Shown: positions 1 to 61,871 of the stretch, one piece after another
Numbering within the stretch: the first letter of the stretch is position 1
How the letters are laid out: every line of letters starts with the position of its first letter
From: a virus
Taxonomy: Duplodnaviria > Caudoviricetes
Length of the DNA: 61,871 nt
Reading direction: 5' to 3' (one strand)
IMG/VR virus record: IMGVR_UViG_3300042465_001631
Location: 1-61,871 of that record
Translations under genes and position numbers: made by a program
The notes under the pieces: generated by a model
What the model saw: only the letters and a program-made list of their open reading frames with translations
Databases searched by the model: none
Told to the model about the DNA's origin: nothing

Positions 1-127
1 CTAACGGCTGCGGGTAGCATTGCAGAGCGGGATTTGAAACCGCTACACTATCCACCGCTACAAAAAGATATTGAAAGCAGTAAAGTTAAATATGCCGTAA
101 TACCCCGCTTTGCTGCTACCCGTTGTT
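1..127. repeat. Terminal overlap, identical to 61745-61871 (circular assembly signature)
   Basis: First 127 nt equal the last 127 nt; a 127 nt overlap is typical of a k=127 de Bruijn circular contig. Confidence 0.9.
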
Positions 128-129
128 AG
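1..129 (-). repeat. attC-like site A (junction copy)
   Basis: CTAAC-ggctg-CGGGTAGCA-tt-GCAGAGCGGG ... CCCCGCTTTGC-TGCTACCCG-tt-GTTAG imperfect inverted repeat. Confidence 0.8.
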
Positions 130-154
130 GGGCTGGTATTAATAAATAAACAAA

Positions 155-406
155 ATGCAAGTTGAAAAATTACCGCAAGACGATTGGAAATTAGACAAAA
201 TTGAGTTAGAATTTAAATCTTATGGTGAAGACCAAGGAAAATACGTTGGTAAAATTCGTTTTCAAAATGGCGAATACGAAAGTTTTTCTTTTAAAATAAG
301 ACCTGATATGGCACAGCCTTATATTGAATTAATAGGTGCTGATATTGTTAAATGTGCTGAGTCGCTTGGAGCAAGATTGGCTGAGTCACTTGGATTAAAG
401 AAGTAG
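155..406 (+). CDS. Cassette-borne hypothetical protein (83 aa), identical to 59004-59255
   Basis: ORF with A-rich leader, flanked by GTTAGGGGC / GCCCCTAAC. Confidence 0.8.
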   Translation: MQVEKLPQDDWKLDKIELEFKSYGEDQGKYVGKIRFQNGEYESFSFKIRPDMAQPYIELIGADIVKCAESLGARLAESLGLKK

Positions 407-434
407 TAAAATCGGGGCGAGGTTATACTTGCCC

Positions 435-559
435 CTAACGATGGTGCTATACGAAGGAGGCGATTATTAGCACTAAAGTTGATGCGGAGTACAAAATTTG
501 AATATAGCAGAATGTTTCTGCGGAACACCGAACCGCCTCTTTTGTATAGCACGTGTTAG
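435..559 (-). repeat. attC-like site G
   Basis: CTAAC-gatg-GTGCTATAC-gaag-GAGGCG ... CGCCTC-tttt-GTATAGCAC-gt-GTTAG. Confidence 0.8.
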
Positions 560-594: not shown

Positions 595-1584
595 ATGGAA
601 TTAAACAAAATATATCATAGTGATTGGATGAATAATAATCTACCTGATAAATCGGTGCAGTTGATTATTGCAGACCCGCCATACTACAAAGTAAAAGGAG
701 ATTTTGACTTTGTATGGAAAACCTTTGACGAGTACCTGCAAGATGTAGAACGCTGGGCAATAGAATGTAAAAGAGTTTTAGCAGATAATGGAACGCTTTA
801 TTGGTATGGAGATGCTAAAAATATTGCCTATGCTCAAATCATTTTTGATAAGCATTTTAACTTATTGAATAGTTTGGTATGGGAAAACACAAACGACCAT
901 AAGCAACAAATAAGATTTAATACCGATTTGCGAACATTTGCACCACTTACTGAAAGATTACTGATGTATGAGCAAAGAGGACAAAAGACTGGAGGAGAAT
1001 TGATATTTGAGCAATTTTTAAAGCCTAAAAATCCATTTTCTAAATACCTAAAAATTGAATTTAAAAACGCTGGATTAACAAATAGAGAAATTGCACAACT
1101 ATTCCCAAGTAGAACAGGCGGATTAACTGGATGTGTTTCTAATTGGTTAAATGGTGATAATGTAATAACAGAGGAGCAATACAATGTAATTAGAGAATAT
1201 TGCAATAACAAGTATCTGCAGAAGCCATACGAGGAACTAAAAGCCGAATACGAGGAACTAAAAGCCGAATATGAAGTGCTACGCAGACCGTTTAATAATG
1301 AACGATATTATGGTGATGTGATTAGAATACCAAATTATGAAACTGGAAACCACGAACACGACACGCCAAAACCCGAAAAGCTAACAAGGGAAATAATATT
1401 AATAAGTAGCAGACCAAACGACCTTATTTTAGTTCCTTTTGCTGGAAGTGGAACGGAGTGTGCAATGGCAATAAAAGAAAATAGAAACTTTTTAGGATTT
1501 GAAATAAACGAAAAACACGTTAATTATGGAAACAAACGAACTGACAATATTAAGGCACAACCGTCATTATTTGCAGTAACGTAG
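595..1584 (+). CDS. Cassette-borne N6-adenine/N4-cytosine DNA methyltransferase (beta class) with inserted HTH-like segment
   Basis: N-terminal DPPY motif, HDTPKP and C-terminal PFAGSG SAM-binding motif; internal GLTNREIAQLF...VSNWL. Confidence 0.9.
   Translation: MELNKIYHSDWMNNNLPDKSVQLIIADPPYYKVKGDFDFVWKTFDEYLQDVERWAIECKRVLADNGTLYWYGDAKNIAYAQIIFDKHFNLLNSLVWENTNDHKQQIRFNTDLRTFAPLTERLLMYEQRGQKTGGELIFEQFLKPKNPFSKYLKIEFKNAGLTNREIAQLFPSRTGGLTGCVSNWLNGDNVITEEQYNVIREYCNNKYLQKPYEELKAEYEELKAEYEVLRRPFNNERYYGDVIRIPNYETGNHEHDTPKPEKLTREIILISSRPNDLILVPFAGSGTECAMAIKENRNFLGFEINEKHVNYGNKRTDNIKAQPSLFAVT
1227..1271 (+). repeat. 21-bp tandem repeat (YEELKAE heptads) inside the MTase gene
   Basis: ATACGAGGAACTAAAAGCCGA x2 plus a partial copy. 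Confidence 0.9.
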
Positions 1585-1610
1585 CCTTGCCACTAACTAC
1601 CTACTAACCG
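1584..1610 (-). other. Array-terminal, non-palindromic attI-like site
   Basis: GCCTTGCCACTAAC-TACCT-ACTAACC: core TAAC followed by a second ACTAAC direct repeat and no long hairpin. Confidence 0.45.
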
Positions 1611-1629
1611 ATATAAATACAAATCTTTT

Positions 1630-1812
1630 ATGAAGTCATACACTAAAAATATTACGATAAACGTTTCTGAAATTCAGTATGAAACTTTAGAAAAAATAAG
1701 AGCTAATAATATAAAAGTAGGCAATTTCATCCGTGAATCAATTCAAGAGAAAATAAAACGTGAGTACCAACAATTAATATTAAAACCAAAAAAATCGGAT
1801 TGTCCGTTTTAA
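1630..1812 (+). CDS. Small ribbon-helix-helix-like DNA-binding protein
   Basis: 60 aa; alternating beta strand (ITINVS) followed by two predicted helices (YETLEKI, VGNFIRESIQEKI). Confidence 0.55.
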   Translation: MKSYTKNITINVSEIQYETLEKIRANNIKVGNFIRESIQEKIKREYQQLILKPKKSDCPF

Positions 1813-33434: not shown

Positions 33435-34109
33435 TTATATATGTTTCCACGTTTTTCTATTCAATATACTAGTTACATTAGATTTAGATATAGAATACAT
33501 TTCAGATAATTTTTTATGGCTATATTTATTATTTAAATATAAATTCCTTATCGATAAAACATCTTTATCATTTAATTTTGAAGAAGTATTACACTCTCCT
33601 CTTTTTGCTGATTTTATTTTATTATCCAAATGTTTAGCAGATATTTTTTTGCCATACATATGATTATTTACACCACTATTAGCTAAAGATATTTTATCTT
33701 TATGCTCTTGACTAAGAACCTTTCCTTTATGAAATAGAGATACCTTGTCTCTTTGTTCTTGACTAATGATTTTTCCCTTATTAGGAATACTCATTTTTAA
33801 TTTAGAATCGTCTGAATGAATTAAACCCAAACAGCCGTCTCCACCATTAGTTAAATTACATAAAGTTCCATTACTCAAATCTTTTCTTCCATGCAGACTT
33901 ATAAATTCAATTTCTTTTTGCTTTATAAGTTCATAGTCATCATTTTCAAATAATATTTCTACATCATATTCAGTTTTAGAAACTATATTTAACCAATGAG
34001 AATTTCTATTTTTATTTGAATTTGCTCTCGAATATGTTTCATCAGAACCTATCCCTATATAAAACGGAACATTTTTATCTAACCTAATATGTCTATATAA
34101 ATAAGCCAT
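33435..34109 (-). CDS. Free-standing GIY-YIG homing endonuclease with NUMOD3 repeats and C-terminal HTH
   Basis: YLYRH...FYIGIG, NLTNGGDG, HSDDSKLKMS / LSQEHKDKIS repeats. Confidence 0.8.
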   Translation of the reverse strand: MAYLYRHIRLDKNVPFYIGIGSDETYSRANSNKNRNSHWLNIVSKTEYDVEILFENDDYELIKQKEIEFISLHGRKDLSNGTLCNLTNGGDGCLGLIHSDDSKLKMSIPNKGKIISQEQRDKVSLFHKGKVLSQEHKDKISLANSGVNNHMYGKKISAKHLDNKIKSAKRGECNTSSKLNDKDVLSIRNLYLNNKYSHKKLSEMYSISKSNVTSILNRKTWKHI

Positions 34110-43362: not shown

Positions 43363-43376
43363 CAAAGATAGTAAAT
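43363..43376 (-). promoter_or_regulatory. -7 promoter element ATTTACTATCTTTG
   Basis: Repeated extended motif. Confidence 0.55.
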
Positions 43377-45262
43377 TATAATTTTACTATAGTTAGTATT
43401 CTATTATTTAATATACATCTACCAACATCGGTTCTCCAATTTATACTAATAGGTTGTGTACCATCAACAGTTGTAACACAAGTTAAAGCTACATCTTCTG
43501 TATACGTGTAGTATCTTCTTAATCTACTGGAGTTTGGAACCATTGTATTCCCATTATATATACTAAACATATTAGTACTACCTAATTGTTGAGTATCATC
43601 ATAAGCATTTCCATTAAATATACTTGTTGCAAATATAGTAACATTTCCAAAATTAGTACCCATATCTCCTGTTATTACTGCTAAAGCTGTATTTGCAACA
43701 TTACCTTGATTTGTAAAGCAAAGGAAGTTTTCCAATATACCCATATTGATAACACTTATTGCAGTTGGTTTAGATTGTATTCCTGAGCTAAATGCTAAAG
43801 CACCACTTGTAGAAAACAATCTACCATTAAAAATACAATTTGCACCTAAAGCAGCAGCTGCTCCATAAGCAATAAAGTTTCCACTAACAACATTATCTGC
43901 ACCAATTCCTACAGCTCCAATAGCCATAAAAAATACATTAGCAGCATTAGCACTATTACTCAATTGAATAGTGGTTGCAATTGCTGTGTTTATAGCTCCT
44001 GTTACTCTAAATATAAATAAAGCATTTGGATCACCTCCACCATCAAGCGTTAGTGTTCCAGCAACTGACATAGCTCCTGAAACTGTATAAACTCCAGCTG
44101 TAATAGTTTCTCCTGAACCAAAAGTTAATCCATGAGTTCCTGTAGCTGGTGTATTTAATAGTGCTAGATACATATTCTGTAAATCTAGTGTAGCTATTGT
44201 ACAAACATTTCCAGGTATTACATCATAGTTTCCATTAAAATCTACTTTATAAGTTCCTGCAGGGGGAGTTATAGTCATACCTGTTACTACTACATCTGTT
44301 AAAGAAGTTGTTGATACTTCTTCTGATGCATTTATAGAGTTATAATATCCACCACTAACTGTAACTACATTCCCATTTGCATCAACTCCTATTGCTTGTC
44401 CTGTTGATGTTGGAGAAGAACTTGTTAGTCTTTCAAGTCTTAGACCAGAATCATTAGCAGCTTCACCATATATATGAAGTCTTTTTGTTGGCGCTATTGT
44501 TCCTATACCTATCTTACCTACATTGTCTATATAAAGTCTTGTAGTTGATGACGTCCTTAAATGTAAAAAATTCTGATTACCCCCATAAAACATAGTTGAA
44601 CCTGATAATTCAGCTACATATACATCGCCAATAGTTATTGAATTATTTGCAGGAACAAGATTAATACCTAATAATCCTGTTGCATCAGCAGCTCTTATGC
44701 TTCCTATTACATGCAAAGGTACTTGTGGACTTGTTGTGAGTATTCCTAATCTATTATTTGTGTCATTCCAAAAGAAATTAGGATTATCTTGCGCAATTGT
44801 TGTTCCATTTGAGAATAATACAGATCCAGATGTTAATGGACCTATAACTGCTCCTGGACCTTGTGGACCTATTGGACCTTGTTCTCCAGCTGGACCTACA
44901 GCACCTTGTAATGCAAGTAATGCCCAATGTGTTGGATCTAAGTAAGGCTCTATAGTTCCATCAGTAGCTAATATACAGAAATAAGAACCATTATTATTAC
45001 CAACAGCATCATCCTCTATATAAGAAGTTCCTGATTCCCATTCTCCTCTCCATTCTAATCCTGCTGGACCAACTGCACCTGGTGCTCCTGTTAATCCTAT
45101 CTCTCCCTGTGGACCAATAGGTCCCTGTTCTCCAGGACCTACAAATTCTGCAATATCCTCTATGGTAAAAGGCTCTGTTGTTTTGTTCAACACAGCAGAC
45201 TTTCTTTCTACTAAGTCAACCGATGTCGCTATTCCTATAAATCTTGTACCATTTGGTATCAT
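43376..45262 (-). CDS. Collagen-repeat fibre protein with inserted DUF3494 (ice-binding-type) domain
   Basis: G-X-Y repeats, NRLGI / GKIGIGT..P fibre repeats, ITAGVY...LTLDGGGDPNALFIFRV...NAANVFF. Confidence 0.75.
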   Translation of the reverse strand: MIPNGTRFIGIATSVDLVERKSAVLNKTTEPFTIEDIAEFVGPGEQGPIGPQGEIGLTGAPGAVGPAGLEWRGEWESGTSYIEDDAVGNNNGSYFCILATDGTIEPYLDPTHWALLALQGAVGPAGEQGPIGPQGPGAVIGPLTSGSVLFSNGTTIAQDNPNFFWNDTNNRLGILTTSPQVPLHVIGSIRAADATGLLGINLVPANNSITIGDVYVAELSGSTMFYGGNQNFLHLRTSSTTRLYIDNVGKIGIGTIAPTKRLHIYGEAANDSGLRLERLTSSSPTSTGQAIGVDANGNVVTVSGGYYNSINASEEVSTTSLTDVVVTGMTITPPAGTYKVDFNGNYDVIPGNVCTIATLDLQNMYLALLNTPATGTHGLTFGSGETITAGVYTVSGAMSVAGTLTLDGGGDPNALFIFRVTGAINTAIATTIQLSNSANAANVFFMAIGAVGIGADNVVSGNFIAYGAAAALGANCIFNGRLFSTSGALAFSSGIQSKPTAISVINMGILENFLCFTNQGNVANTALAVITGDMGTNFGNVTIFATSIFNGNAYDDTQQLGSTNMFSIYNGNTMVPNSSRLRRYYTYTEDVALTCVTTVDGTQPISINWRTDVGRCILNNRILTIVKL

Positions 45263-45306: not shown

Positions 45307-45873
45307 ATGGAATTTAAACCAAAATTACGTAAAAACTACGACAGATACGAACCAAAGTACGACTACTTGAAATATTACAAGGTAGTTCGGTACTGGGTAA
45401 AGCGAAAGTATGGTGTCGGAACATCTGACCTTGAGATGCTGTGCTTCTTGTACACTCAAAAACTATTCAAGCGTGCAGACTTTAAAGAATACGAGTGCCT
45501 ATTCGCATGGGATGTGAATCGATTCCAAAGACTTATGGATGAGGGGTGGATCTCTCGTTGGCGTGAACGCAAAGGAACAGAGGGTGCTTTATATGAACTA
45601 TCACAGAAGGGTAAGCTGTTGATTACTACCGTGTACAGAAAGCTAAATGGAGAGGAGCCTATATCTGAGGCTCAACAGAACAATCCACTATTCAATACAA
45701 ACGTGTCATATACTGACAATATGTACAAGAGAATTATAAAGACAATGAATATAAACTATGCCGAAAAAAGAAGGCTGAAGAAGATAGACGAAATCGCCTT
45801 TCAAAAACAGCCTTGTACAATTGAAAAAAGGAAAGCTATAGGACTACCACCACATCCCTTTCTTGAATTATAG
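45307..45873 (+). CDS. Winged-helix (MarR-like) DNA-binding protein; only + strand gene in the late arm
   Basis: DLEMLCFLY...FQRLMDEGWISRW...LYELSQKGK; start moved to ATG 45307, downstream of the promoter. Confidence 0.6.
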   Translation: MEFKPKLRKNYDRYEPKYDYLKYYKVVRYWVKRKYGVGTSDLEMLCFLYTQKLFKRADFKEYECLFAWDVNRFQRLMDEGWISRWRERKGTEGALYELSQKGKLLITTVYRKLNGEEPISEAQQNNPLFNTNVSYTDNMYKRIIKTMNINYAEKRRLKKIDEIAFQKQPCTIEKRKAIGLPPHPFLEL

Positions 45874-46102
45874 TATAGGGTATATTCTCTATTAACATAG
45901 TATATCCAGCTCCTTTATCGTAGTAGATATAATTTCCCTCGTTAACGCAGTCTACATTCGTGCCTGGCTTTACTACTAGCCCCTTCTTGTATCTAAACTT
46001 CTCAGCATCACTACCCGTAAGTAGTAACCCTGATTCTGTTTTTATCTGTTCATCAATCGTTGTGATTAAAATGTATTTATTTATTGGAATTGCTGTCATC
46101 AT
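45836..46102 (-). CDS. groES: Co-chaperonin GroES
   Basis: KTESGLLL mobile loop, G.VV..G, ERDVV; adjacent to GroEL. Confidence 0.8.
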   Translation of the reverse strand: MMTAIPINKYILITTIDEQIKTESGLLLTGSDAEKFRYKKGLVVKPGTNVDCVNEGNYIYYDKGAGYTMLIENIPYTIIQERDVVVVL

Positions 46103-48681
46103 TACGCTCGTGTCATTGTTATAATTGCATTTGTACTTAATATCGTAGTGGCTACACTCACCGCATTCTTCAGTGCGTTCTTCGTAACCTTCAGTGGATC
46201 AATTACACCCATCTTGAACATATCACCATATACCTCATTCTTAACATCATACCCTTGATCCTTACCAAATGGAACCTCCATCACCTCATAACCATCCAAC
46301 CCAGCATTGGTCATGATCTGTAGCAATGGTGCTTGTATAGCCCTTGCTATAATATGCATCGCTGCGTACTGGTTAGCACTAATGTCATCAATCGTGTCAT
46401 CTGCGTTAGCGATAATCGTGTAAGACTCACTGAATAAGGCTAAACCTCCTCCTGGCAAGATACCTTCCTCTAATGCAGAACGTACAGCACATACTGCGTC
46501 ATCAACTCTGTCTTTACGTTCTTTCTGCTCAAGGTCTGAGTTACCTCCTACGTAAATTACACCAATACCTCCTGTCAAGCTAGCAATACGCTGTTTGATA
46601 AAGTCCTTGTCTGACTTTCTATTTGATAGGTTATAGCTATCCCAAAGCTGAGAAACTCTATCGTTGATCTCGTCGCTTGCAACCTCTGACCTTACAATCA
46701 CAGTGTTGTCTCTTCCTACAATGATCTTGTCTGCTCTACCAAGGTCGTCAACGCTAATAAGGCTCAAGTCATCTCCAGTGCTCTCTGAGAAATACTTAGC
46801 TCCTACAGCCAGTGCAATGTCACCCATCAACTCGTTACGTTTATAACCAAACTGAGGAGGTATAATGTTGCATAACCTCAATCCCTTCTGTACTACGTTG
46901 GCAGCCAATGTGTTAATAACATTCTGACTACACGTACCGATGATCAATAGCTTCTTCTGTTGCTGTATAACTGGCATAAGTACCTTCTCAATTGACAAGA
47001 TATTATTTATCTCTTGATCCGTAACAAGTACCAGTACATCATCCATAATGCACTCGTCTTTCTTATGGTTGTTGATGAACATGTTCGATGTATATCCTCT
47101 ATCAATCTTAATACCATTGGTAACCTGCGTATACGTCTCTGATGTCTGAGAGTCCTCGATAGTGACAATACCATCCTTACCAACCTTCTCGTATGTGCTC
47201 GCTATAATACCGCCAAGCTCCGTGTCATTGTTGGCTGAGATTGATGCCACGTTCTTCAGCGTCTTTCCGCTAACCTTCTTGGACCTCTTCTCCAGACTAG
47301 TTACCAACCTATCAGTTACGTCGTTCATGTGTCTAATAACCTCTGTGATGTTGTGCTTGTCGTTCAAAATCTCTTGACCTTGCTTAACAATAGCCTCTGT
47401 AAGCACAATCGCTGTTGTGGTATTGTGAGTAGGAATATAATTATCTGTTATGTATAAGTGGTTTTCATTACTTACCTTTATACACATCATTTCTGTTCTA
47501 ATTCCAGTATTTACTACGTTTACTATTTTAGCTCCGTACTTATATCCAGATAATTGAGCTATTCTATGAATACTTTTATTTGAGTATGAATTAACATCAT
47601 TCTCTCTTGAATGTAATCTCCTGTTAAAAGAATGACCAAGACTAACGATTAATTCTTGAAAGTCGTCAGCTAATTTATCAGAAACCGTACTAAATTCAAA
47701 TAACCCTCTTTTATTAATATATCCGTCAGTAGCTAATAGTCCTTCTAATAATCTTTTTCTATCCTCTATTGGGGAATATAAATAAGTTTCTGGTATTAAT
47801 TTCGTATCGCTTTTTGTTCCAAGTAAACCTATTGAATTAACTAAATCAAACATAGTAAGTCCAGATTCAGTAACTCCTTTAAATTTTACTCTAAAATAAT
47901 TCTTATCATCACACCATCTAACTGATGTAGTTATTCCGTCTGGAATAATTATACTGCTAATTATATGTTCTTTATTTAATCCAAGAGATAACTCAATAGC
48001 TCCTGTTCCGCTTAAACTACCATCACCAAGAAGTACACCTACTAAAAATGGATCTAACGGCATAGGATTTACTTGAGTAAACTCAACTGGAGACGTTTCT
48101 ATAAAATATTTGTATGTATTTGAATTATCTTTATTTAAAGATGAAAAATCTTTCATTATATCTAAAGTAGTAATAGTTTTAGATACTCCGTAATTAGTTG
48201 TAACGGTCCATAAATGATTTTCAGAACACTCAACTAACCTTCCATCTCCAAATGAAACTTCGTATATGTCTAAATTTCCTTTAGGGAATACCCCTAAAAC
48301 AGTTTGACTAGTTTCGTGAGTTCCGCAAATAGTATCTCCAACACTTAAATCACTTATCTTAGTCCATCCAAATGGGGTTAAGACATTGGCATCTAATGGT
48401 TGTGGTCCATCTCCTGCACTAGTCGCTGTGCGATCTGCCGCTTCCTTCATCATCTTAACTGCTAGGTTCTCTACTGGATCGATGAGGTAAATAGACTTGG
48501 CTACTGTTACCCCATCTTTCGTGACTGTAATTCCATGCGTGTGCTCTGGTGATTCAATCAAGACTGTCTTACCTCGTGGTCCGAGTGTGCTCTTAACTGC
48601 CTTGGCAATAGTGGTGATGCCATTAATTAACTTATCCCTTCCTTCTGTATCGAAGACTAAATCCTTTGGACTGTAACTCAT
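46102..48681 (-). CDS. groEL: Chaperonin GroEL containing an intein
   Basis: STLGPRG, VTKDGVTVAK, AGDG/TTT, KDRVDDA, PGGG, GVIDP; start set at MSYSPK, downstream of TATATTTG. Confidence 0.95.
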   Translation of the reverse strand: MSYSPKDLVFDTEGRDKLINGITTIAKAVKSTLGPRGKTVLIESPEHTHGITVTKDGVTVAKSIYLIDPVENLAVKMMKEAADRTATSAGDGPQPLDANVLTPFGWTKISDLSVGDTICGTHETSQTVLGVFPKGNLDIYEVSFGDGRLVECSENHLWTVTTNYGVSKTITTLDIMKDFSSLNKDNSNTYKYFIETSPVEFTQVNPMPLDPFLVGVLLGDGSLSGTGAIELSLGLNKEHIISSIIIPDGITTSVRWCDDKNYFRVKFKGVTESGLTMFDLVNSIGLLGTKSDTKLIPETYLYSPIEDRKRLLEGLLATDGYINKRGLFEFSTVSDKLADDFQELIVSLGHSFNRRLHSRENDVNSYSNKSIHRIAQLSGYKYGAKIVNVVNTGIRTEMMCIKVSNENHLYITDNYIPTHNTTTAIVLTEAIVKQGQEILNDKHNITEVIRHMNDVTDRLVTSLEKRSKKVSGKTLKNVASISANNDTELGGIIASTYEKVGKDGIVTIEDSQTSETYTQVTNGIKIDRGYTSNMFINNHKKDECIMDDVLVLVTDQEINNILSIEKVLMPVIQQQKKLLIIGTCSQNVINTLAANVVQKGLRLCNIIPPQFGYKRNELMGDIALAVGAKYFSESTGDDLSLISVDDLGRADKIIVGRDNTVIVRSEVASDEINDRVSQLWDSYNLSNRKSDKDFIKQRIASLTGGIGVIYVGGNSDLEQKERKDRVDDAVCAVRSALEEGILPGGGLALFSESYTIIANADDTIDDISANQYAAMHIIARAIQAPLLQIMTNAGLDGYEVMEVPFGKDQGYDVKNEVYGDMFKMGVIDPLKVTKNALKNAVSVATTILSTNAIITMTRA
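47422..48405 (-). mobile_element. 328 aa LAGLIDADG intein, class-3-type (Pro1, W-C-T triplet)
   Basis: PQPLDANVLTP start; CSENHLW; LVGVLLGDG and LLEGLLATDG; MMCIKV...IPTHN/T end. Confidence 0.9.
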
Positions 48682-48708
48682 TTTATTATATTTAATTGTT
48701 TTATGGGA

Positions 48709-48716
48709 CAAATATA
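48709..48716 (-). promoter_or_regulatory. -7 promoter element TATATTTG for groEL
   Basis: TAnnTTTG. Confidence 0.5.
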
Positions 48717-57403: not shown

Positions 57404-57473
57404 AGCTACGTGGTATAGTGGTATTATATTGAGTTTTTCCTCATTGAGGCAGGTTCGATTCCTGTCGTAGTGC
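57404..57473 (+). tRNA. tRNA-like cloverleaf with a 6-nt anticodon loop (pseudo-tRNA, identity unassignable)
   Basis: GCTACG/CGTAGT acceptor, TAGTGGTA D-loop, TGAG/CTCA stem, GCAGG-TTCGATT-CCTGT T-arm; TATATTTG promoter at 57390. Confidence 0.55.
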
Positions 57474-57531
57474 TAAACAAACAGGGTAGCCGAAAACTGA
57501 TTAGAGTAGGCGAATTTAAAATAAAATAAAA

Positions 57532-58109: not shown

Positions 58110-58207
58110 TGGAAAATATAGCAGCATTTTTAGTAGGATGTTTCTTCGTCCTATTTATATGGGTAAATACTTGGATCTATGAACAGTGGAATAATAAATT
58201 GAAGTAA
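58109..58207 (+). CDS. 32 aa membrane peptide whose TAA stop forms the first TAAC core of the array
   Basis: TAATG coupling; MENIAAFLVGCFFVLFIWV... Confidence 0.45.
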   Translation: MENIAAFLVGCFFVLFIWVNTWIYEQWNNKLK

Positions 58208-58233
58208 CGGATGGTGTTACCGCTAGTTGTGGG
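58204..58233 (-). repeat. Half attC-like site at the array's left end
   Basis: GTAACGGATGGTGTTACCGCTAGTTGTGGG resembles the left arms of sites G and D; no matching right arm found. Confidence 0.45.
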
Positions 58234-58276
58234 TTTTTACCGAAAAATTAATTATAAATACTAAATACAAAAAAAT

Positions 58277-58810
58277 ATGGGATGTGATATACACAGTTTT
58301 GCCGAAATAAAAAGAAACGGTAAATGGGAAAAAGTAGGAGAACATTTTTCGTTAGGAGAATGGGAAAAAGAATATTATAAAAAAGAAAAAAACGACAGTC
58401 CTTTTGATTGGAGAAGTTATTCAATGTTTGCATTTTTAGCTGATGTTAGAAATTATGACCATTGCGAACCAATAAGCGAACCAAAAGGAATACCCGAAGA
58501 TGTTTGTGACGAAATCAAAAGCGAATATGATGATTGGGAAAGTGACGCACATTCATCGTCTTACTTGACACTAAAAGAACTTTTAGATTTTGATTACGAT
58601 AAAGTGTTTTGGAACAGAAGAATTAATAGAACTACGTATAATGAAAATGGTGGTAGTTATACTAACGGAGCGTCATTAGCAGAAGAAGGAGAAGGAACTA
58701 ATGTAACGTATAGAGAAAATCTAGGAGAATTTTTCTTTATTCATTTGAAAGAATTGGAAGAATTAGGAAATCCTGATGAAGTCAGAATAGTTTTTTGGTT
58801 CGACAATTAA
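58277..58810 (+). CDS. Hypothetical phage protein (MGCDIH family) in the first, degenerate cassette
   Basis: MGCDIH...RSYSMFAFLADVRN...RIVFWFDN. Confidence 0.8.
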   Translation: MGCDIHSFAEIKRNGKWEKVGEHFSLGEWEKEYYKKEKNDSPFDWRSYSMFAFLADVRNYDHCEPISEPKGIPEDVCDEIKSEYDDWESDAHSSSYLTLKELLDFDYDKVFWNRRINRTTYNENGGSYTNGASLAEEGEGTNVTYRENLGEFFFIHLKELEELGNPDEVRIVFWFDN

Positions 58811-58849
58811 CTAAATTTCATTAAGAACCGCTAATGTAGTAATTAGCAT

Positions 58850-58978
58850 CTAACGGCTGCGGGTAGCATTGCAGAGCGGGATTTGAAACCGCTACACTAT
58901 CCACCGCTACAAAAAGATATTGAAAGCAGTAAAGTTAAATATGCCGTAATACCCCGCTTTGCTGCTACCCGTTGTTAG
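58850..58978 (-). repeat. attC-like site A
   Basis: Same as 1-129. Confidence 0.8.
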
Positions 58979-59003
58979 GGGCTGGTATTAATAAATAAAC
59001 AAA

Positions 59004-59255
59004 ATGCAAGTTGAAAAATTACCGCAAGACGATTGGAAATTAGACAAAATTGAGTTAGAATTTAAATCTTATGGTGAAGACCAAGGAAAATACGTTGGTA
59101 AAATTCGTTTTCAAAATGGCGAATACGAAAGTTTTTCTTTTAAAATAAGACCTGATATGGCACAGCCTTATATTGAATTAATAGGTGCTGATATTGTTAA
59201 ATGTGCTGAGTCGCTTGGAGCAAGATTGGCTGAGTCACTTGGATTAAAGAAGTAG
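59004..59255 (+). CDS. Cassette-borne hypothetical protein (83 aa)
   Basis: Identical to 155-406. Confidence 0.8.
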   Translation: MQVEKLPQDDWKLDKIELEFKSYGEDQGKYVGKIRFQNGEYESFSFKIRPDMAQPYIELIGADIVKCAESLGARLAESLGLKK

Positions 59256-59283
59256 TAAAATCGGGGCGAGGTTATACTTGCCC

Positions 59284-59414
59284 CTAACGGTATCTCGCTT
59301 TGTGTCAGTGGCGGATTAAAAAAGACTGACTTTCCGATTAATAACTAAACATACAAAAATGCAAGAAACATTAAATTTAGACCAAAACCCGCCATTGCAC
59401 AAAACTAGTGTTAG
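59284..59414 (-). repeat. attC-like site B
   Basis: CTAAC...TTTGTG-t-CAGTGGCGG ... CCGCCATTG-CACAAA...GTTAG. Confidence 0.75.
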
Positions 59415-59907
59415 CAAATCGGTTCCGAAAATTAAAACTTATGTGCTAACAGTTTCAGAATTTTTCCCTAAAACGCACAATAAATCAGGATTACCAACAG
59501 GATTTATTGATAAAATCGGAAGCAAAATTAAAAAGCACACCATTCGTGGAAATTACGAATTATGGAAAAAAAGAATTGAAGAAATACAAAAAGGAAATGC
59601 TGTTTTATCAATTCGTTATTGGCTTGGAAAACCTTATAATTCCAAGCAAAAAGAAGTTCATGTTTTAGATAAATATTCTGGAATTGGAGTTCAAAAATTA
59701 ACTTTTGAAGAGATGATTATGACTTGCGAAGATGTTTTAGAAACAAAATCAAAAGTAGGACTGCATATTTGGAAACCAAATTTTTCAAATATTAAAACTC
59801 TAGCGAAAAATGACGGACTTGAATTTGAAGATTTTAAAGAATGGTTTAAAGGTTATGATTTAAACGAACCAATGGCAATAGTTCATTTTACCGATGAACG
59901 TTATTAA
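59359..59907 (+). CDS. Cassette-borne ASCH/PUA-like protein; ORF begins inside site B
   Basis: KKHTIR...W and LAKNDGL...F..WF motifs. Confidence 0.6.
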   Translation: MQETLNLDQNPPLHKTSVSKSVPKIKTYVLTVSEFFPKTHNKSGLPTGFIDKIGSKIKKHTIRGNYELWKKRIEEIQKGNAVLSIRYWLGKPYNSKQKEVHVLDKYSGIGVQKLTFEEMIMTCEDVLETKSKVGLHIWKPNFSNIKTLAKNDGLEFEDFKEWFKGYDLNEPMAIVHFTDERY

Positions 59908-59914
59908 CTGTTTG

Positions 59915-59989
59915 CTAACGTTCCCACGATAGGGGCTGTTTGCCTATGCGGTTGCGTAAATTCGGCAAATAGACATTATCGTGTGTTAG
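59915..59989 (-). repeat. attC-like site C (short, 75 bp)
   Basis: CTAAC...ACGATA..CTGTTTGCC ... GGCAAATAG..TATCGT-gt-GTTAG. Confidence 0.75.
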
Positions 59990-60040
59990 CACCAGTAGCG
60001 GATTAATTAAACAAAAATATTAACTTAAAACAAAATAAAT

Positions 60041-60187
60041 ATGCCACCATTAAAAGAATACAGATTTGAGGATATGATGAACTCAAATGTACAAGTAGTA
60101 ATTAAATCATACAGCTTTACACAGGCTTATGAAATTTTGGTAATGATAACTAAACACCCTGCGGATTTTAAATGTACGAGTTTGTAG
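60041..60187 (+). CDS. Cassette-borne 48 aa protein (not in ORF track)
   Basis: MPPLKEYRFED...KCTSL fills the gap between sites C and D; A-rich leader. Confidence 0.65.
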   Translation: MPPLKEYRFEDMMNSNVQVVIKSYSFTQAYEILVMITKHPADFKCTSL

Positions 60188-60196
60188 CTATTGGTG

Positions 60197-60328
60197 CTAA
60201 CGTACGTTGAGCATTGTTGTAGTTGTGGATTAGGGCTGCCAAATTATCGATTAAACACTAATACAACCAAGTACAAAAACCAATTATTAATTAAGCCAAA
60301 TGCCACAATTGCCACAACGCATTGTTAT
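60197..60328 (-). repeat. attC-like site D
   Basis: CTAAC...GCATTGTTGTAGTTGTGG ... CCACAATTGCCACAACGC-att-GTTAT. Confidence 0.75.
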
Positions 60329-60354
60329 ATGATGGCTTTTTATTCACACAAATT

Positions 60355-60621
60355 ATGAAAGATTTTAAACAATTCAGAAGAAGTCAAATTGCAGAAATTA
60401 GAGAAGTAACAGAAGTAGATATTAATGTATTTAAGAATCACGGATTTATATATATATCAGAATATCTATTTGGTTTTAATATATCAATTTCCGATGCAGA
60501 TAAAAATAACGGAAGCCCTAAAATTGGCGATATGATTGCAAGAAATCCAAAAGACTACTCTGACCAATGGTTAATAGCTGAACAATATTTCAAAGATAAT
60601 TTTGAACAGTTAGTTGAGTAA
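60355..60621 (+). CDS. Cassette-borne hypothetical phage protein
   Basis: SISDADKNNGSPKIGDMIARNP...DQWL; start at ATG 60355. Confidence 0.75.
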   Translation: MKDFKQFRRSQIAEIREVTEVDINVFKNHGFIYISEYLFGFNISISDADKNNGSPKIGDMIARNPKDYSDQWLIAEQYFKDNFEQLVE

Positions 60622-60629
60622 GCTATCAT

Positions 60630-60715
60630 ATAACGGAAAAGCTTGTAGCTGTATGCCAAGAAAAACGTGAATCTAAAGAAAATAGTCGTAGCATATAGCT
60701 ACAAGCGTGTGTTAG
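60630..60715 (-). repeat. attC-like site E
   Basis: ATAAC-ggaaaa-GCTTGTAGCTGTATGC ... GCATATAGCTACAAGC-gtgt-GTTAG. Confidence 0.8.
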
Positions 60716-60749
60716 GGTGCGTAGTGGGTAATTAAAAATAAAAGTTATT

Positions 60750-61421
60750 ATGAAAAAGAATGTTTTAGAATTATTTGCAGGATCCCGCTCAATAGGAAAT
60801 AAAGCCGAGCAATTAGGAATGAATGTTTTTAGCGTAGATTGGACACCATACGAAAAAATAGATTTATCAATTGATATTGAATTATTGACTAAAGACCAAG
60901 TCCCATTTATTCCTGATGTTGTATGGGCAAGTCCTGATTGCACAACTTATACGATTGCCGCAATATCACATCATAGAAATGGAACAGAACCTAAAAGCGA
61001 TTATGCTTTAAAATGTGATAATGTAAATAAGCACTGGCTAGGCTTAATAAATGAATGGTTAATCATTAATCCTAAAATGGTATTCTTTATTGAAAATCCT
61101 CGTGGAATGATGCGAAAAATGCCGTTTATGAAAGGATTACAAAGAACTACTGTATGGTATTGTACTTACGGAGATTCGAGAGCAAAACCAACTGACATCT
61201 GGAGCAATAATATACAATCAATTTTTAATCAAAACGGATGGAATCCAAGAGCTGAATGTTTTAACGGTAATAAAAAATGCCAACACGAAAGCGCACCGAG
61301 AGGATCAAAAACAGGGACACAAGGAAAAAAAGGAAGTTACAACCGTTCTAAAATACCTGAATTATTATGCGAGGATGTGCTAAATTCAATTATGAATGAT
61401 AATCGTAGCTATGCACCCTAA
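60750..61421 (+). CDS. Cassette-borne short C5-cytosine DNA methyltransferase-like protein
   Basis: LELFAGS (motif I), ASPDC (IV), IENP (VI), KPT; stop codon is the TAA of the next core. Confidence 0.8.
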   Translation: MKKNVLELFAGSRSIGNKAEQLGMNVFSVDWTPYEKIDLSIDIELLTKDQVPFIPDVVWASPDCTTYTIAAISHHRNGTEPKSDYALKCDNVNKHWLGLINEWLIINPKMVFFIENPRGMMRKMPFMKGLQRTTVWYCTYGDSRAKPTDIWSNNIQSIFNQNGWNPRAECFNGNKKCQHESAPRGSKTGTQGKKGSYNRSKIPELLCEDVLNSIMNDNRSYAP

Positions 61422-61545
61422 CGGCGGATGCTACACGATGGCTGGGAAAAGCACACACCCAAACTTCGGATAATGACTGATTAAAAAAGTACAAACTGAA
61501 CTTTAAATTTAAAAATTAACCCAACTATTGTATAGCGTATGTTAG
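61418..61545 (-). repeat. attC-like site F
   Basis: CTAAC...ATGCTACACGATGGCTGGG ... CCCAACTATTGTATAGCGT-at-GTTAG. Confidence 0.75.
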
Positions 61546-61570
61546 CAGTAGTTATAATACAGAATTTGTT

Positions 61571-61738
61571 ATGAAAGCACTATGCTTAATTATTTGGATG
61601 ATTATTTCATTATTATTTGTTTGCAGTATCATTGGATTGGTAATGTTTATACCTAAAGACAATTGGCAAAATCAAGAAAACACACCATCAACTTGGTATT
61701 CTATTGGTAAAAAATTGTTGAACAGTGTGGTTGAATAA
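61571..61738 (+). CDS. Cassette-borne 55 aa membrane protein (not in ORF track)
   Basis: MKALCLIIWMIISLLFVCSIIGLVMF...; fills the gap between sites F and A. Confidence 0.65.
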   Translation: MKALCLIIWMIISLLFVCSIIGLVMFIPKDNWQNQENTPSTWYSIGKKLLNSVVE

Positions 61739-61744
61739 TTACTG

Positions 61745-61871
61745 CTAACGGCTGCGGGTAGCATTGCAGAGCGGGATTTGAAACCGCTACACTATCCACC
61801 GCTACAAAAAGATATTGAAAGCAGTAAAGTTAAATATGCCGTAATACCCCGCTTTGCTGCTACCCGTTGTT
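61745..61871 (-). repeat. attC-like site A, equal to the terminal overlap with 1-127
   Basis: Identical to window start. Confidence 0.85.

What the first reader, a model, noticed from the sequence alone, without database searches (positions are those of the whole stretch)
58850..59289. Exact duplication of one site+gene unit with both ends at the TAAC core
Seen: 58850-59289 equals 1-440. Identity begins at CTAAC (preceding context GCAT vs ACTG) and ends at the next CTAACG (followed by site B in one copy and site G in the other). This places the crossover at the + strand TAAC and shows the mobile unit is upstream palindrome + gene. Inference: either a recent cassette duplication, or the assembler joined a genome with an excised six-cassette circle (58850-61744) or a population variant. 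Either way the same cassette has two different neighbour sets.
Basis: partly seen in the sequence, partly recalled or inferred. Interest (0 to 1): 0.8.

Follow-up and report, generated by a model that had tools for sequence, protein, structure and literature searches.

The report
Duplicated gene cassette in phage integron-like array
A lake-water Flavobacterium-type phage carries the same small "recombination site plus gene" unit twice within an integron-like array of swappable genes, and the ends of the copies mark where such units are cut and joined.

Summary
In detail: 58850-59289 is identical to 1-440, and 61745-61871 repeats 1-127, so the record is a circularly assembled 61,744-bp phage genome. 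The repeat is one unit of an array of nine (eight different): an attC-like imperfect palindrome (TAACG...TGTTA) followed by a small gene. Two of the genes are DNA methyltransferases.

In four lake metagenome runs the 440-bp repeat is its own contig. In three of the four its depth is about the sum of its flanks. All four junctions are present, and the six-unit block between the copies has about genome depth. This favours a real duplication within the genome over an abundant free circle.

The window encodes no recombinase. A covariance model of the sites finds the same site family directly upstream of a short Xer/IntI-like tyrosine recombinase in 20 of 80 viral loci. It also finds it beside a related recombinase in two Flavobacteriaceae chromosomes.

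In phages the genes lie on the TAACG...TGTTA strand; in the chromosomal arrays they mostly lie on the opposite strand. attC clusters in virulent phages are published (Qi et al. 2023). The crossover mapping, the flipped cassettes and the recombinase link appear to be new.

The parts
58204..58221 (+). Degenerate minimal site (TAACG..GTGTTAC with no stem) in front of gene X; left end of the array
   Evidence: Read. The relative L005 has a full 91-nt site at the same place, followed by the same leader.
58277..58810 (+). Gene X, 177 aa, unknown function (phrog_10141)
   Evidence: The module 58214-58847 is 95.9% identical to L005 while both flanks are unrelated; identity stops 2-3 nt before the next TAAC.
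58850..59289 (+). Repeat copy 2 = cassette A: site A (58850-58978), ORF A (59004-59255, 83 aa), through the CTAACG that opens site G
   Evidence: It is its own 440-bp contig in four runs. R1 scores site A at 40.8 bits.
59284..59414 (+). Site G; the start codon of ORF G (59359) lies inside its loop and the 3' arm is coding
   Evidence: R1 79.2 bits.
59359..59907 (+). ORF G, 182 aa, unknown function (phrog_8581)
59915..59989 (+). Site H (short, 75 nt)
   Evidence: Fold -19.7 kcal/mol, z -4.96. Missed by R1. A contig of another genome in run X3 shares only 59913-59988.
60041..60187 (+). ORF H, 48 aa, unknown function
60197..60327 (+). Site I (3' core GTTAT)
   Evidence: R1 35.6 bits. The fold is no better than shuffles.
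60356..60621 (+). ORF I (ATG at 60356; the list gives a TTG start at 60322), unknown function
60630..60715 (+). Site J
   Evidence: Fold z -3.66; R1 only 20.8 bits, E 0.12.
60750..61421 (+). ORF J, 223 aa, DNA methyltransferase (phrog_757); its stop codon lies inside the CTAACG of site K
61418..61545 (+). Site K, a site type conserved in many phages
   Evidence: R1 106.2 bits. 79.4% identical to F. psychrophilum phages. Its exact 23-mer occurs in 17 IMG/VR contigs and 3 Flavobacterium genome contigs.
61571..61738 (+). ORF K, 55 aa, hydrophobic
61745..61871 (+). Assembly overlap, identical to 1-127 (start of site A, copy 1)
1..440 (+). Repeat copy 1 = cassette A: site A (1-129), ORF A (155-406), through the CTAACG that opens site B
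435..559 (+). Site B
   Evidence: Fold -24.6 kcal/mol, z -4.51; R1 67.1 bits.
595..1584 (+). ORF B, 329 aa, N6/N4 DNA methyltransferase
   Evidence: PF01555 at 9.2e-40; PADLOC type II and orphan MTase models.
1577..1612 (+). Right end of the array: a lone TAACG 4 nt before the MTase stop, then two more CTAAC words and no hairpin. Possibly the attI-like end (inference).
   Evidence: Read.

Best explanation
The window is a complete, circularly assembled genome of a lytic-type phage of Flavobacteriaceae. Between its recombination genes and its replication genes lies an integron-like array of nine units, eight of them different. Each unit is an attC-like imperfect palindrome followed by a short leader and one small gene. 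The palindrome has invariant TAACG at its 5' end and TGTTA at its 3' end on the gene-sense strand, and its arms differ in sequence between units but still pair. The 440-bp repeat is one such unit (site A plus an 83-aa ORF) present twice in the same genome, once between units X and G and once between units K and B.

Units are exchanged by site-specific recombination with the crossover inside TAAC at the 5' end of the site. That position corresponds to the canonical integron crossover (bottom strand 5'-AA|C, top strand G|TT in the R' box) if the gene-sense strand is the 'bottom' strand that folds. The likely enzyme is a short Xer/IntI-like tyrosine recombinase without the IntI-specific insertion. 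This phage does not encode it, but it sits directly downstream of the same kind of array in other phage contigs, and a relative sits beside arrays in Flavobacteriaceae chromosomes. It would act on this phage in trans, from the host or from a co-infecting phage.

The present order X-A-G-H-I-J-K-A-B would arise in one of two ways. A circle of six cassettes could have integrated at a TAAC or within A. Alternatively, two array variants that held A at different places could have recombined.

Shown: the repeat; the four junctions; the depths; the site family and its covariation; the TAAC boundaries; the linkage of the sites to the recombinase genes; the strand rule. Inferred: which enzyme acts; that a folded single strand is the substrate; the route by which the duplication arose.
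For: Repeat and circle.

Reads:
- In four runs (four samples, four studies; three may be the source of the record) the repeat is a separate 440-bp contig.
- Repeat depth against the flanking contigs: X1 183.1 vs 85.4 and 98.7/88.3; X2 63.2 vs 36.2 and 34.1/33.5/40.3; X4 14.2 vs 4.2-7.2 and 3.1-8.2.
- All four junctions appear in all four runs: contigs reaching 30 nt into the repeat from X, from G and from K, plus a loose end at 59289 that reads the start of site B.

Site family:
- TAACG and TGTTA are invariant in 15 of 15 aligned sites.
- RNAalifold predicts 9 stem pairs, 8 of them with compensatory changes.
- The sense strand folds better in 19 of 24 sites (mean -1.7 kcal/mol, Wilcoxon p 0.0017).
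- Covariance model R1 hits the window only inside the array at E below 0.01.

Enzyme link:
- No PF00589, PF00239 or PF01797 match in six frames of the window, with positive controls.
- R1 sites occur in 20 of 80 viral loci fetched with the recombinase. All 93 hits lie on the recombinase strand and upstream of the gene.
- Genes downstream of the recombinase in four of those loci are phage-like.
- The recombinases are 240-268 aa. Their best NCBIfam families are XerA/'integron integrase' and TIGR02249, both below cut-off.
- In two Flavobacteriaceae genomes a 347-aa relative abuts arrays of at least 9 and at least 17 sites.
- Against VchIntIA (PDB 2a3v) that relative has 15 residues where IntIA has 59.

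Strand rule: ORFs lie on the TAACG strand in 8/9, 8/8, 42/44 and 57/61 inter-site gaps of phage arrays, and on the opposite strand in 23/29 gaps of chromosomal arrays.

Published context: attC clusters with methyltransferase cassettes occur in virulent phages, including Polaribacter phage P12002L (PMC9892861; sections and supplement Table S3 read).
Against: - No recombinase is encoded in this phage, so action in trans is assumed.
- The only member of this site family tested in print, P12002L_attC1, is identical to the site I read in L031. It was the one of six phage sites that IntI1 did not recombine.
- The sites show no consistent extrahelical bases on the arm where canonical attC sites carry them. 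Their extra bases lie next to the crossover core.
- Contigs with k=31 cannot phase a 440-bp repeat. In run X3 the repeat depth (11.1) is below the sum of its flanks (6.2-11.9 plus 7.3-9.3).
- Site types K and A are conserved across phages, loops included, while both neighbouring genes differ. In the K set the right end of similarity falls right after GTTA(C) in 52 of 171 pairs. Exchange at the 3' end, or a separate function of the site, therefore also exists.
- One long shared segment (L012-L018) ends inside a gene, not at TAAC.
- R1 found no sites in 60 of the 80 recombinase loci, nor in the fetched flanks of 3 of the 6 closest chromosomal orthologues.
- Array-linked recombinases are clustered on a quick tree but do not form one clade.
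Confidence: 0.62

Rival explanations
1. Two molecules rather than one. The phage genome would be 58,849 bp with a single copy of A, and the block A-G-H-I-J-K would be a separate 2,895-bp circle (an excised multi-cassette circle) or would belong to a co-occurring variant. The assembler walked a figure-of-eight graph as a single circle.
For: The repeat (440 bp) is longer than any k-mer used, and no contig spans it. The record ends with a 127-bp overlap that lies inside the repeat. Mini-circles of this kind are documented for PeSL cassettes of T4-type phages, at about 1 per 10^5 virions (PMC2839356, passages read).
Against: The block has the same depth as the genome in the two deep runs (X1 98.7/88.3 vs 85.4; X2 34.1/33.5/40.3 vs 36.2), and the repeat has the summed depth. 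A circle with no recognisable replication gene would have to stay equimolar with the phage in separate samples. A variant lacking the block would lower the block's depth, which is not seen.
Confidence: 0.12
2. The palindromes are regulatory elements of the early transcripts: terminators, RNA-processing sites or leader structures with a promoter, like the PeSL cassettes of T4-type phages or the RNase III sites between T7 early genes. Cassette shuffling would then be a by-product of the phage's general recombination machinery acting on the short conserved ends, with no dedicated recombinase.
For: The sites sit in every intergenic gap of co-directional early genes. Their sense strand folds better (19 of 24), which also suits an RNA structure. 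Some enclose the start codon (site G; L006). Site types K and A are conserved with their loops and about 20 nt of leader in front of unrelated genes. The phage encodes a PDDEXK exonuclease and an SSB next to the array. PeSL shuffling needs no integrase (PMC2839356).
Against: Recent exchanges end within a 4-6-nt core shared by otherwise unrelated sites, which is too short for homologous exchange. They favour the 5' TAAC over the equally conserved 3' TGTTA. The same sites are tied in position and strand to a tyrosine recombinase gene in 20 viral loci and 2 bacterial genomes. In the chromosomal arrays the sites lie antisense to most ORFs, which does not fit a leader or a promoter. A regulatory role could still coexist with recombination.
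Confidence: 0.15
3. The palindromes are selfish miniature inverted-repeat elements (MITE-like) that insert between phage genes. The cassette boundaries would only reflect where different elements happened to insert.
For: Site types K and A occur as discrete modules of 127-150 bp with sharp ends in many unrelated contexts. A contig in run X3 shares site H alone.
Against: Sites within one genome differ in sequence but keep the structure, unlike MITE copies. No target-site duplication is visible in the flanks printed. Insertion of a MITE cannot move a gene, yet site+gene units are shared with both ends at TAAC. No transposase was found in the window: no family of that kind among 82 ORFs and no PF01797 match.
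Confidence: 0.05

Closest known systems
[quoted passage not shown] 2023, Front Microbiol, PMC9892861
   Same: An array of imperfect palindromes with AAC/GTT cores between small genes of a lytic phage, with orphan DNA methyltransferases among the cassettes and no integrase in the phage. Their Polaribacter phage P12002L carries sites of the very same family (TAACG...TGTTA on the gene-sense strand).
   Different: In what I read of that paper (sections 3 and 3.4, passages, Table S3), sites were found with IntegronFinder and HattCI and tested with IntI1 in E. coli. The family member they tested did not recombine. I saw no natural cassette exchange, no crossover mapping in phage genomes, no gene-versus-site strand rule and no linked Xer-like recombinase. 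I did not read the whole paper.
Canonical integron cassettes and attC sites (IntI, folded bottom-strand recombination)
   Same: Structure is conserved and sequence is not. AAC/GTT cores sit at the foot of the hairpin. The TAACG...TTGTTA signature matches the strand of attC-aadA7 that I take to be the bottom strand (Table S3; the strand assignment rests on my recall of the 3'-conserved segment). The crossover position fits AA|C. Arrays lie next to a tyrosine recombinase of the Xer/IntI group.
   Different: In phage arrays the ORFs lie on the bottom-like strand, so each gene travels with the site upstream of it. No extrahelical bases appear on the R''-L'' arm as defined in PMC2727003 (passages read); instead a 3-5-nt bulge lies next to the core. 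The linked recombinases lack the IntI-specific insertion and score below the curated cut-off of TIGR02249. In a sample of 301 genomes of the host family, no six-frame match reached the cut-off.
PeSL mobile regulatory cassettes of T4-type phages; Arbiol et al. 2010, PMC2839356
   Same: Hyperplastic regions of a lytic phage in which small genes of unknown function are flanked by repeated stem-loop motifs. Cassettes are gained, lost and form circles. No integrase is present in the phage.
   Different: PeSLs are a sigma-70 promoter plus a terminator, and they recombine within patches of sequence homology (passages read). Here the arms differ between sites and the junctions fall in a 4-6-nt core.
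Reverse integrons of Treponema (integrase co-directional with the cassettes)
   Same: The two Flavobacteriaceae chromosomal arrays have the recombinase gene upstream of the cassette ORFs and co-directional with them.
   Different: I saw only the search listing (title and start of abstract) of PMC3607928; the comparison otherwise rests on recall. Treponema integrases are bona fide IntI proteins.

Membership tests
Integron attC site | Imperfect palindrome of about 57-141 bp whose ends carry the inverse core RYYYAAC and the core GTTRRRY | tested here: inconclusive
   AAC and GTT are invariant: TAACG and TGTTA in 15 of 15 aligned sites. Lengths are 73-131 nt in the window. The full 7-mers often depart from RYYYAAC/GTTRRRY, e.g. 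CCCTAAC, TGCTAAC, GTTAGTG.
Integron attC site | Structure conserved while sequence varies (covarying stem) | tested here: met
   9 stem pairs, 8 with compensatory changes. Folds beat shuffles for sites A, B, H and J (z -2.6 to -5.0) but not for I and K of the window.
Integron attC site | Extrahelical bases on the R''-L'' arm, i.e. the arm away from the crossover (definition read in PMC2727003) | tested here: not met
   Folds of 24 sites show a 3-5-nt bulge, and where single-base bulges exist they lie on the 5' arm of the sense strand. That is the arm next to the mapped crossover. There are no consistent bulges on the other arm.
Integron attC site | Crossover in the R' box (G|TT on the top strand, AA|C on the bottom strand) | tested here: met
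   Natural junctions fall within TAAC of the sense strand. This is the R' box if the sense strand is the bottom strand.
Integron attC site | Detected by the attC models of IntegronFinder or HattCI+Infernal | not testable with these tools
   Neither program is on hand, and Rfam has no attC family (no such hit). In print, P12002L_attC1 was called by HattCI only.
Integron attC site | Recombined by an integron integrase | not testable with these tools
   Published assay: P12002L_attC1, of this family, gave no verified recombinants with IntI1. No assay exists with the Xer-like recombinases found here.
CALIN (cluster of attC sites lacking an integrase) | At least two attC sites close together with no integron integrase nearby | tested here: met
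   The 5.1-kb array holds ten site occurrences: seven site types with a full hairpin (A present twice, so eight copies) plus the minimal site before X and the lone TAACG at 1577-1581. The whole genome has no tyrosine recombinase. Membership is conditional on the sites counting as attC.
Integron (complete) | IntI: a tyrosine recombinase with the IntI-specific additional domain, scoring above the curated cut-off of TIGR02249 | tested here: not met
   Absent from the window. Array-linked recombinases score 132-204 bits against a cut-off of 265, always in two stretches. Against VchIntIA there are 15 residues in place of 59.
Integron cassette | ORF on the top strand, upstream of its own attC | tested here: not met
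   In phage arrays the ORFs are on the TAACG...TGTTA strand, downstream of their own site: 8/9, 8/8, 42/44 and 57/61 gaps. The feature is met in the chromosomal arrays (23/29 gaps).
PeSL regulatory cassette | Sigma-70-type early promoter plus GC-rich terminator stem-loop; exchange within homologous patches | tested here: not met
   Exchange junctions lie in a 4-6-nt core between otherwise unlike sites. Promoter content was not tested: the host group uses other promoter signals (recalled) and the scan tool covers sigma-70 only.
MITE | Many near-identical copies within a genome, terminal inverted repeats and target-site duplication | tested here: not met
   The sites within the window differ from each other apart from the duplicated A. 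No direct repeats are seen in the flanks printed.

The most novel reading that the evidence does not exclude
Phages of Flavobacteriaceae have a gene-capture system of their own that mirrors the integron. Arrays of [attC-like site + promoter/leader + ORF] cassettes have their ORFs on the strand that folds and recombines. They are served by a short (about 240-270 aa) Xer/IntI-like tyrosine recombinase without the IntI-specific domain, encoded at the downstream end of the array in many large lytic phages. Integrase-less phages such as this one use it in trans. The cassette pool includes DNA methyltransferases and many unknown small proteins, and would be a shared, rapidly shuffled store of counter-defence genes. 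Host chromosomes hold the sister system with cassettes in the canonical orientation.
Probability: 0.45. Interest if true: 0.85.

Novelty: new variant of a known kind. Interest (0 to 1): 0.72.

Why it matters
Integrons are known as bacterial devices. Phage attC clusters have been seen as stray pieces of them, and the one Flavobacteriaceae-phage site of this family tested in print failed with IntI1.

This finding gives direct natural evidence that such units move as units within and between lytic phage genomes. It shows where they are cut. It also points to a candidate enzyme family that current integron finders would probably miss (inference), because they require the IntI-specific domain (recalled).

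If the reading holds, three things become testable. First, how lytic phages swap anti-restriction and other early genes without long homology. Second, whether a recombinase can handle attC-like hairpins without the domain that reads extrahelical bases. Third, why phage cassettes are flipped relative to chromosomal ones.

It also gives a practical handle, a covariance model of the site, for finding hypervariable counter-defence gene stores in phage metagenomes.

Tried and rejected
- RNA families: an Rfam scan of the window found nothing at the sites. The only hits were a tRNA at 57404-57473, a DUF805b motif below its gathering score and a weak Phe leader. ARAGORN found only that tRNA. A structured-RNA or tRNA reading of the sites is therefore dropped.
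- Close relatives: blastn of the array against 50,697 phage records gave only short matches, to the SSB gene and to site K. No close cultured relative was found.
- Function of ORF A: no family in Pfam, PHROGs, NCBIfam or PADLOC. It has 66 homologue clusters, none named by a source as more than 'hypothetical protein'. The AlphaFold model has mean pLDDT 71. Foldseek found no PDB match at E 0.001 or better and, in the viral library, one match at E 0.001 or better and one just above it, one unnamed and one uncharacterised. Its function stays unknown.
- HUH/IS200-type transposition at TAAC: I considered it because of the tetranucleotide plus hairpin. No PF01797 match exists in the window, and the sites are linked to tyrosine recombinases instead.
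- A conserved partner protein: tblastn of 81 window proteins against the site-bearing loci found only a 60-aa gene (window 1630-1812) recurring near sites, in 6 loci. It has weak RelB-like hits below the cut-offs. I did not follow it up.
- Chromosomal arrays: blastn within and between them gave two repeated segments that did not fix a crossover, because neighbouring sites there are alike.
- The tree of recombinases is the quick tree. The careful search did not finish in 288 s and I did not rerun it.
- Earlier notes of this scan: two look-ups returned nothing.
- Literature: three searches for integrons or attC sites in Flavobacterium, Flavobacteriaceae or their phages listed no paper whose title or abstract start describes such a system. 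The library lacks most subscription journals.
Full report
**1. The observation**

Positions 58850-59289 are identical to 1-440. Positions 61745-61871 are identical to 1-127. The tool identifies the window as a whole IMG/VR virus record with direct terminal repeats, estimated 100% complete. The 127-bp end repeat looks like the overlap an assembler leaves on a circular path; that 127 is a common largest k-mer is my recollection. The unique circle is then 61,744 bp and holds two full copies of the 440-bp segment.

On the circle, the copy at 1-440 is preceded by ...ATAATTACTG and followed by ATGGTGC.... The copy at 58850 is preceded by ...TAATTAGCAT and followed by GTATCTC....

**2. What the genome is**

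I scanned 82 ORFs against Pfam and PHROGs.

- The minus strand (about 10.6-51.1 kb) carries structural and lysis genes. These include the terminase large subunit, portal, virion proteins, a crAss-type muzzle C-terminal domain, an endolysin, proteins of 2,267 and 1,591 aa, and a GroEL that carries an intein-like insert.
- The plus strand carries early, recombination and replication genes. These include a PDDEXK exonuclease, a DUF3127 SSB, a primase-helicase, a helicase, a VRR-NUC nuclease and an HNH endonuclease.

The best nucleotide matches are to phages of Flavobacterium, Tenacibaculum and Cellulophaga. The runs that hold the sequence are lake-water metagenomes.

No integrase, resolvase or Y1 transposase was found, either among the ORFs or in six-frame searches with PF00589, PF00239 and PF01797. 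The control genomes of those searches were positive.

**3. The array**

Between gene X (58277-58810) and the end of the N6/N4 methyltransferase gene (595-1584), every intergenic gap holds an imperfect palindrome. On the gene-sense strand it starts with TAACG and ends with TGTTA.

| Unit | Site | Gene |
|---|---|---|
| X | minimal site 58204-58221 | 177 aa, unknown |
| A | 58850-58978 | 83 aa, unknown |
| G | 59284-59414 | 182 aa, unknown |
| H | 59915-59989 | 48 aa, unknown |
| I | 60197-60327 | unknown |
| J | 60630-60715 | 223 aa, DNA methyltransferase (phrog_757) |
| K | 61418-61545 | 55 aa, hydrophobic |
| A again | 1-129 | 83 aa, unknown |
| B | 435-559 | 329 aa, N6/N4 methyltransferase |

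A lone TAACG at 1577-1581 closes the array. The other plus-strand genes are tightly packed and have no such sites.

The arms differ between sites but pair:

- In a 15-site alignment, TAACG and TGTTA are the only invariant blocks.
- RNAalifold finds 9 stem pairs, 8 of them with compensatory changes.
- As single-stranded DNA, sites A, B, H and J fold better than shuffles. Sites I and K of the window do not.
- The sense strand folds better than the antisense strand in 19 of 24 sites from several phages (mean difference -1.7 kcal/mol, Wilcoxon p 0.0017).
- The invariant ends themselves give a G-T pair on the sense strand and an A-C mismatch on the other.
- Next to the core, the 5' arm carries 3-5 unpaired bases against 0-2 on the 3' arm.

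**4. Is the duplication real?**

They come from four samples and four studies; three are flagged as possible sources of this record. All are kept as k=31 contigs, so they can show junctions and contig-mean depth but cannot phase a 440-bp repeat.

In every run the repeat is a separate contig of exactly 440 bp (58850-59289).

| Run | Repeat | Genome side (X) | Six-unit block |
|---|---|---|---|
| X1 | 183.1 | 85.4 | 98.7 and 88.3 |
| X2 | 63.2 | 36.2 | 34.1, 33.5, 40.3 |
| X4 | 14.2 | 4.2-7.2 | 3.1-8.2 |
| X3 | 11.1 | 7.3-9.3 | 6.2-11.9 |

In X3 the repeat depth is not clearly double.

All four junctions are present in all four runs. Contigs run from X 30 nt into the repeat, from the repeat into G, and from K into the repeat. 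A loose end at 59289 reads the first bases of site B.

The block between the copies is thus about as abundant as the rest of the genome in the two deep runs. A common variant without the block, or an abundant free circle, would shift that ratio. I conclude that the duplication most probably sits in one genome (about 0.8). The two-molecule reading stays open until a molecule spanning the repeat is seen.

**5. Where units are cut**

*Gene X.* The close relative L005 shares only 58214-58847 with the window, at 95.9% identity. Its flanks are unrelated. Identity stops 2-3 nt before the TAAC of the next site. Upstream, L005 has a full 91-nt site where the window has a 16-nt remnant with the same ends.

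*Site K.* The exact first 23 nt of site K occur in 17 IMG/VR contigs. I compared these with the window and phage FPSV-D15, giving 19 loci and 171 pairs.

- Similarity starts at the T of TAAC or 1 nt before it in 124 pairs.
- Its right end is spread: 126-127 nt, i.e. right after GTTA(C), in 52 pairs; 133-135 nt in 47; up to 171 nt in most others; beyond 200 nt in 9.

*Long shared segments.* An all-against-all search of 22 oriented loci for shared segments of at least 250 nt and 85% identity found six.

- The window's own repeat.
- L005-window.
- L012-L020 and L018-L020: from TAAC to +523, ending exactly after the next ...GGTAAC.
- L014-L019: from TAAC to +480, ending after ...CCAGTAACG.
- L012-L018: ending inside a gene.

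Recent exchanges therefore carry a site plus the gene downstream of it. The joints fall within TAAC, in a core of 4-6 nt shared by otherwise unlike sites.

*Site-only sharing.* Older comparisons show that a site type can also be found alone in front of unrelated genes. This holds for K, for A in three further contigs where similarity covers only 1-150, and for H in a contig of run X3. Some exchange at or just beyond the 3' end therefore also happens, or the site has a conserved function of its own.

**6. Comparison with integron attC sites**

Bouvier et al. 2009 (PMC2727003, passages read) define extrahelical bases as unpaired bases on the R''-L'' arm and place the recombination point in the R' box.

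The supplement of Qi et al. 2023 prints both strands of attC-aadA7. The strand I take to be the bottom strand reads TAACG...TTGTTAG, like the sense strand of the phage sites. The strand assignment rests on my recollection that the 3'-conserved segment follows GTTAGAT on the top strand.

With the sense strand as the 'bottom' strand, the mapped crossover (TAA|C) is the canonical one. The genes then lie on the bottom strand, so each gene travels with the site upstream of it. This is the mirror image of a canonical cassette.

The extra bases of the phage sites sit on the crossover side, and no regular extrahelical bases are seen on the other arm. That defining feature is not met.

**7. What is in print**

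Qi et al. 2023 (PMC9892861) reported 17 attC clusters without an integrase in phages, some of them virulent, with five methyltransferase cassettes. One example is Polaribacter phage P12002L.

I fetched that genome and found the same site family upstream of its methyltransferase and Mom-like genes, on the gene-sense strand. Their P12002L_attC1 is one of these sites (Table S3). It was called by HattCI only, and it was the one of six phage sites for which no verified IntI1 recombinant was obtained.

The general phenomenon is therefore known. This family's only test with a class 1 integrase was negative.

IntegronFinder 2.0 reports only an In0 and one complete integron (Salinibacter) in Bacteroidetes (PMC9024848, passage). 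My three literature searches listed no paper on integrons in Flavobacterium or Flavobacteriaceae or their phages.

**8. Looking for the enzyme**

I built covariance model R1 from 15 sites of phage origin, with the core pairs and the 9 stem pairs as structure.

- In the window it finds K, G, B, A and I (106 to 36 bits) and nothing outside the array at E below 0.01. J scores 20.8 bits and H is missed.
- In the K and A loci it finds arrays of up to 7 sites, nearly always on one strand.
- Among 151 genomes sampled from the family of a Flavobacterium that carries site K, only 3 have a hit at E 1e-4 or better. One of them, G001, has 16.

In G001, eight hits lie in a phage-like region with a crAss-type muzzle domain, where the array sits between structural genes. 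The others form two arrays at contig ends.

*The chromosomal arrays.* One G001 array starts 651 nt downstream of a 347-aa tyrosine recombinase gene that lies next to gldI and peptidyl-prolyl isomerase genes.

- The recombinase scores 218.3 bits on NF040815, 'tyrosine recombinase/integron integrase' (cut-off 220).
- It scores 203.8 bits on TIGR02249, in two stretches (cut-off 265).
- Against VchIntIA it aligns as 78-257 to 9-186 and 273-345 to 246-318. It therefore has 15 residues where the integron integrase has 59. That this stretch is the IntI-specific domain that contacts the extrahelical bases is my recollection.
- Its closest orthologue in a 301-genome sample (81% identity, G174) abuts an array of at least 17 sites with the same layout.
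- A 66% orthologue (G029) has one site at a contig end.
- No sites were found in the fetched flanks of three others.
- No six-frame match in the 301 genomes reached the IntI cut-off. These scores are per matched stretch, and no control genome holds an integron.

*The phage arrays with a recombinase.* With the G001 recombinase as query, the viral collection gave 80 loci at 38-50% identity.

- R1 finds sites in 20 of them.
- All 93 hits are on the strand of the recombinase gene, and all lie upstream of it. The last site ends a few hundred bases before the matched part of the gene.
- The recombinases are 240-268 aa, with the same best families, below cut-off.
- Downstream genes in four of these loci are typical of lytic phages: thymidylate synthase, QueD/QueE-like genes, RNA ligase, helicases and a Holliday-junction resolvase.
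- On a quick tree the array-linked proteins are clustered (13 label changes against 17.9 in shuffles; as few in 4 of 500) but do not form one clade. Among the 69 viral rows kept for the tree, 31 loci with upstream sequence available show no R1 site.

*The strand rule.* The longest ORF between neighbouring sites lies as follows.

| Arrays | Longest ORF lies on | Gaps |
|---|---|---|
| Window | TAACG strand | 8 of 9 |
| G001 phage-like region | TAACG strand | 8 of 8 |
| 19 viral loci | TAACG strand | 42 of 44 |
| Recombinase-linked viral loci | TAACG strand | 57 of 61 |
| Three chromosomal arrays | opposite strand | 23 of 29 |

**9. Reading**

The site family behaves as the recombination site of an integron-like system served by Xer/IntI-like recombinases that lack the IntI insertion.

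In phages the geometry of site and recombinase matches what I recall of a classical integron: the array lies on the 5' side of the gene and the bottom-like strand is co-directional with it. The cassette ORFs, however, are flipped. They are read in the same direction as the surrounding early genes and the recombinase, and each ORF carries its site, and whatever signals the site or leader holds, in front of it.

The window phage is an integrase-less member. Its array includes two methyltransferases, plausibly protection against host restriction (inference from family names), and six genes of unknown function.

The duplication of unit A needs no more than one of two events. A six-unit circle could have integrated at a TAAC or within A. 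Or two array variants with A at different places could have recombined. Either way, the two neighbour sets of A, joined within a 6-nt core, record cassette-level exchange.

What remains inferred: the acting enzyme, a single-stranded folded substrate, and any regulatory role of the sites.

**10. Verdict**

The feature is a new variant of a known kind, an integron-like cassette system in phages. Part of it is already in print (attC clusters in virulent phages). The mapped crossover, the flipped cassettes and the linked Xer-like recombinase I did not find in the papers I read or searched.

Noticed in passing
window 46102-48711 (-): The GroEL-like chaperonin is 868 aa. Cpn60 matches it in two stretches, with a LAGLIDADG-type hit at residues 319-380 and intein-like PHROG hits at 65-432. 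This looks like an intein inside a phage chaperonin gene, next to a GroES-like gene (45836-46102).
   Followed up: no
window 57404-57512 (+): A tRNA-like gene: Rfam tRNA 37.5 bits, while ARAGORN calls an undetermined tRNA with a two-base anticodon. It is directly followed by a DUF805b RNA motif hit (33.2 bits, just under the gathering score of 35.6). Both lie between the exonuclease and SSB genes.
   Followed up: no
window, whole genome: CTAACG and its complement are about twice as frequent as expected across the genome: 46 on both strands of the record against 15.7 in shuffles, and 25 and 20 on the circle against about 10 each under an order-3 model. Only about ten of the occurrences lie in the array.
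   Followed up: partly
window 1630-1812 (+): A 60-aa gene (phrog_25647, with weak RelB-like hits below the cut-offs) sits at the end of the array, just before the primase gene. Homologues (48-68% identity) lie next to K-type sites in 6 other loci, in some as the gene of a cassette.
   Followed up: partly
L031 (Polaribacter phage P12002L) 32491-32695; window 59284-59414; L006 4350-4475 and about 5036-5150: The arms of some sites enclose coding sequence. In P12002L a 205-nt site holds a whole 50-aa annotated ORF in its loop. In the window (site G) and in L006 the start codon lies in the loop and the 3' arm is translated.
   Followed up: partly
G001:C12 about 307.5-312 kb (L029/L030): A crAss-muzzle-type phage region inside an 862-kb Flavobacterium contig carries a cassette array (8 sites by my hairpin finder, 8 by R1, 9 distinct) between two structural genes, on the opposite strand to them. 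Arrays therefore occupy different places in related phages.
   Followed up: partly
window 9753-10289 (+) and 33435-34109 (-): Two free-standing homing-endonuclease-type genes: NUMOD4 + HNH, and one with a NUMOD3 motif. The second lies between the terminase and portal genes.
   Followed up: no
window 43376-45262 (-): A tail-fibre-like protein with an ice-binding-like domain (PF11999, 4.2e-22).
   Followed up: no
runs X2-X4 laid on window 61419, 59913-59988 and 61573: Contigs of other genomes in the same lake samples join the window's sequence exactly at site edges: from TAAC of site K onward; site H alone; and site K plus its leader up to the start codon. The sites are therefore shared between co-occurring phages.
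   Followed up: partly
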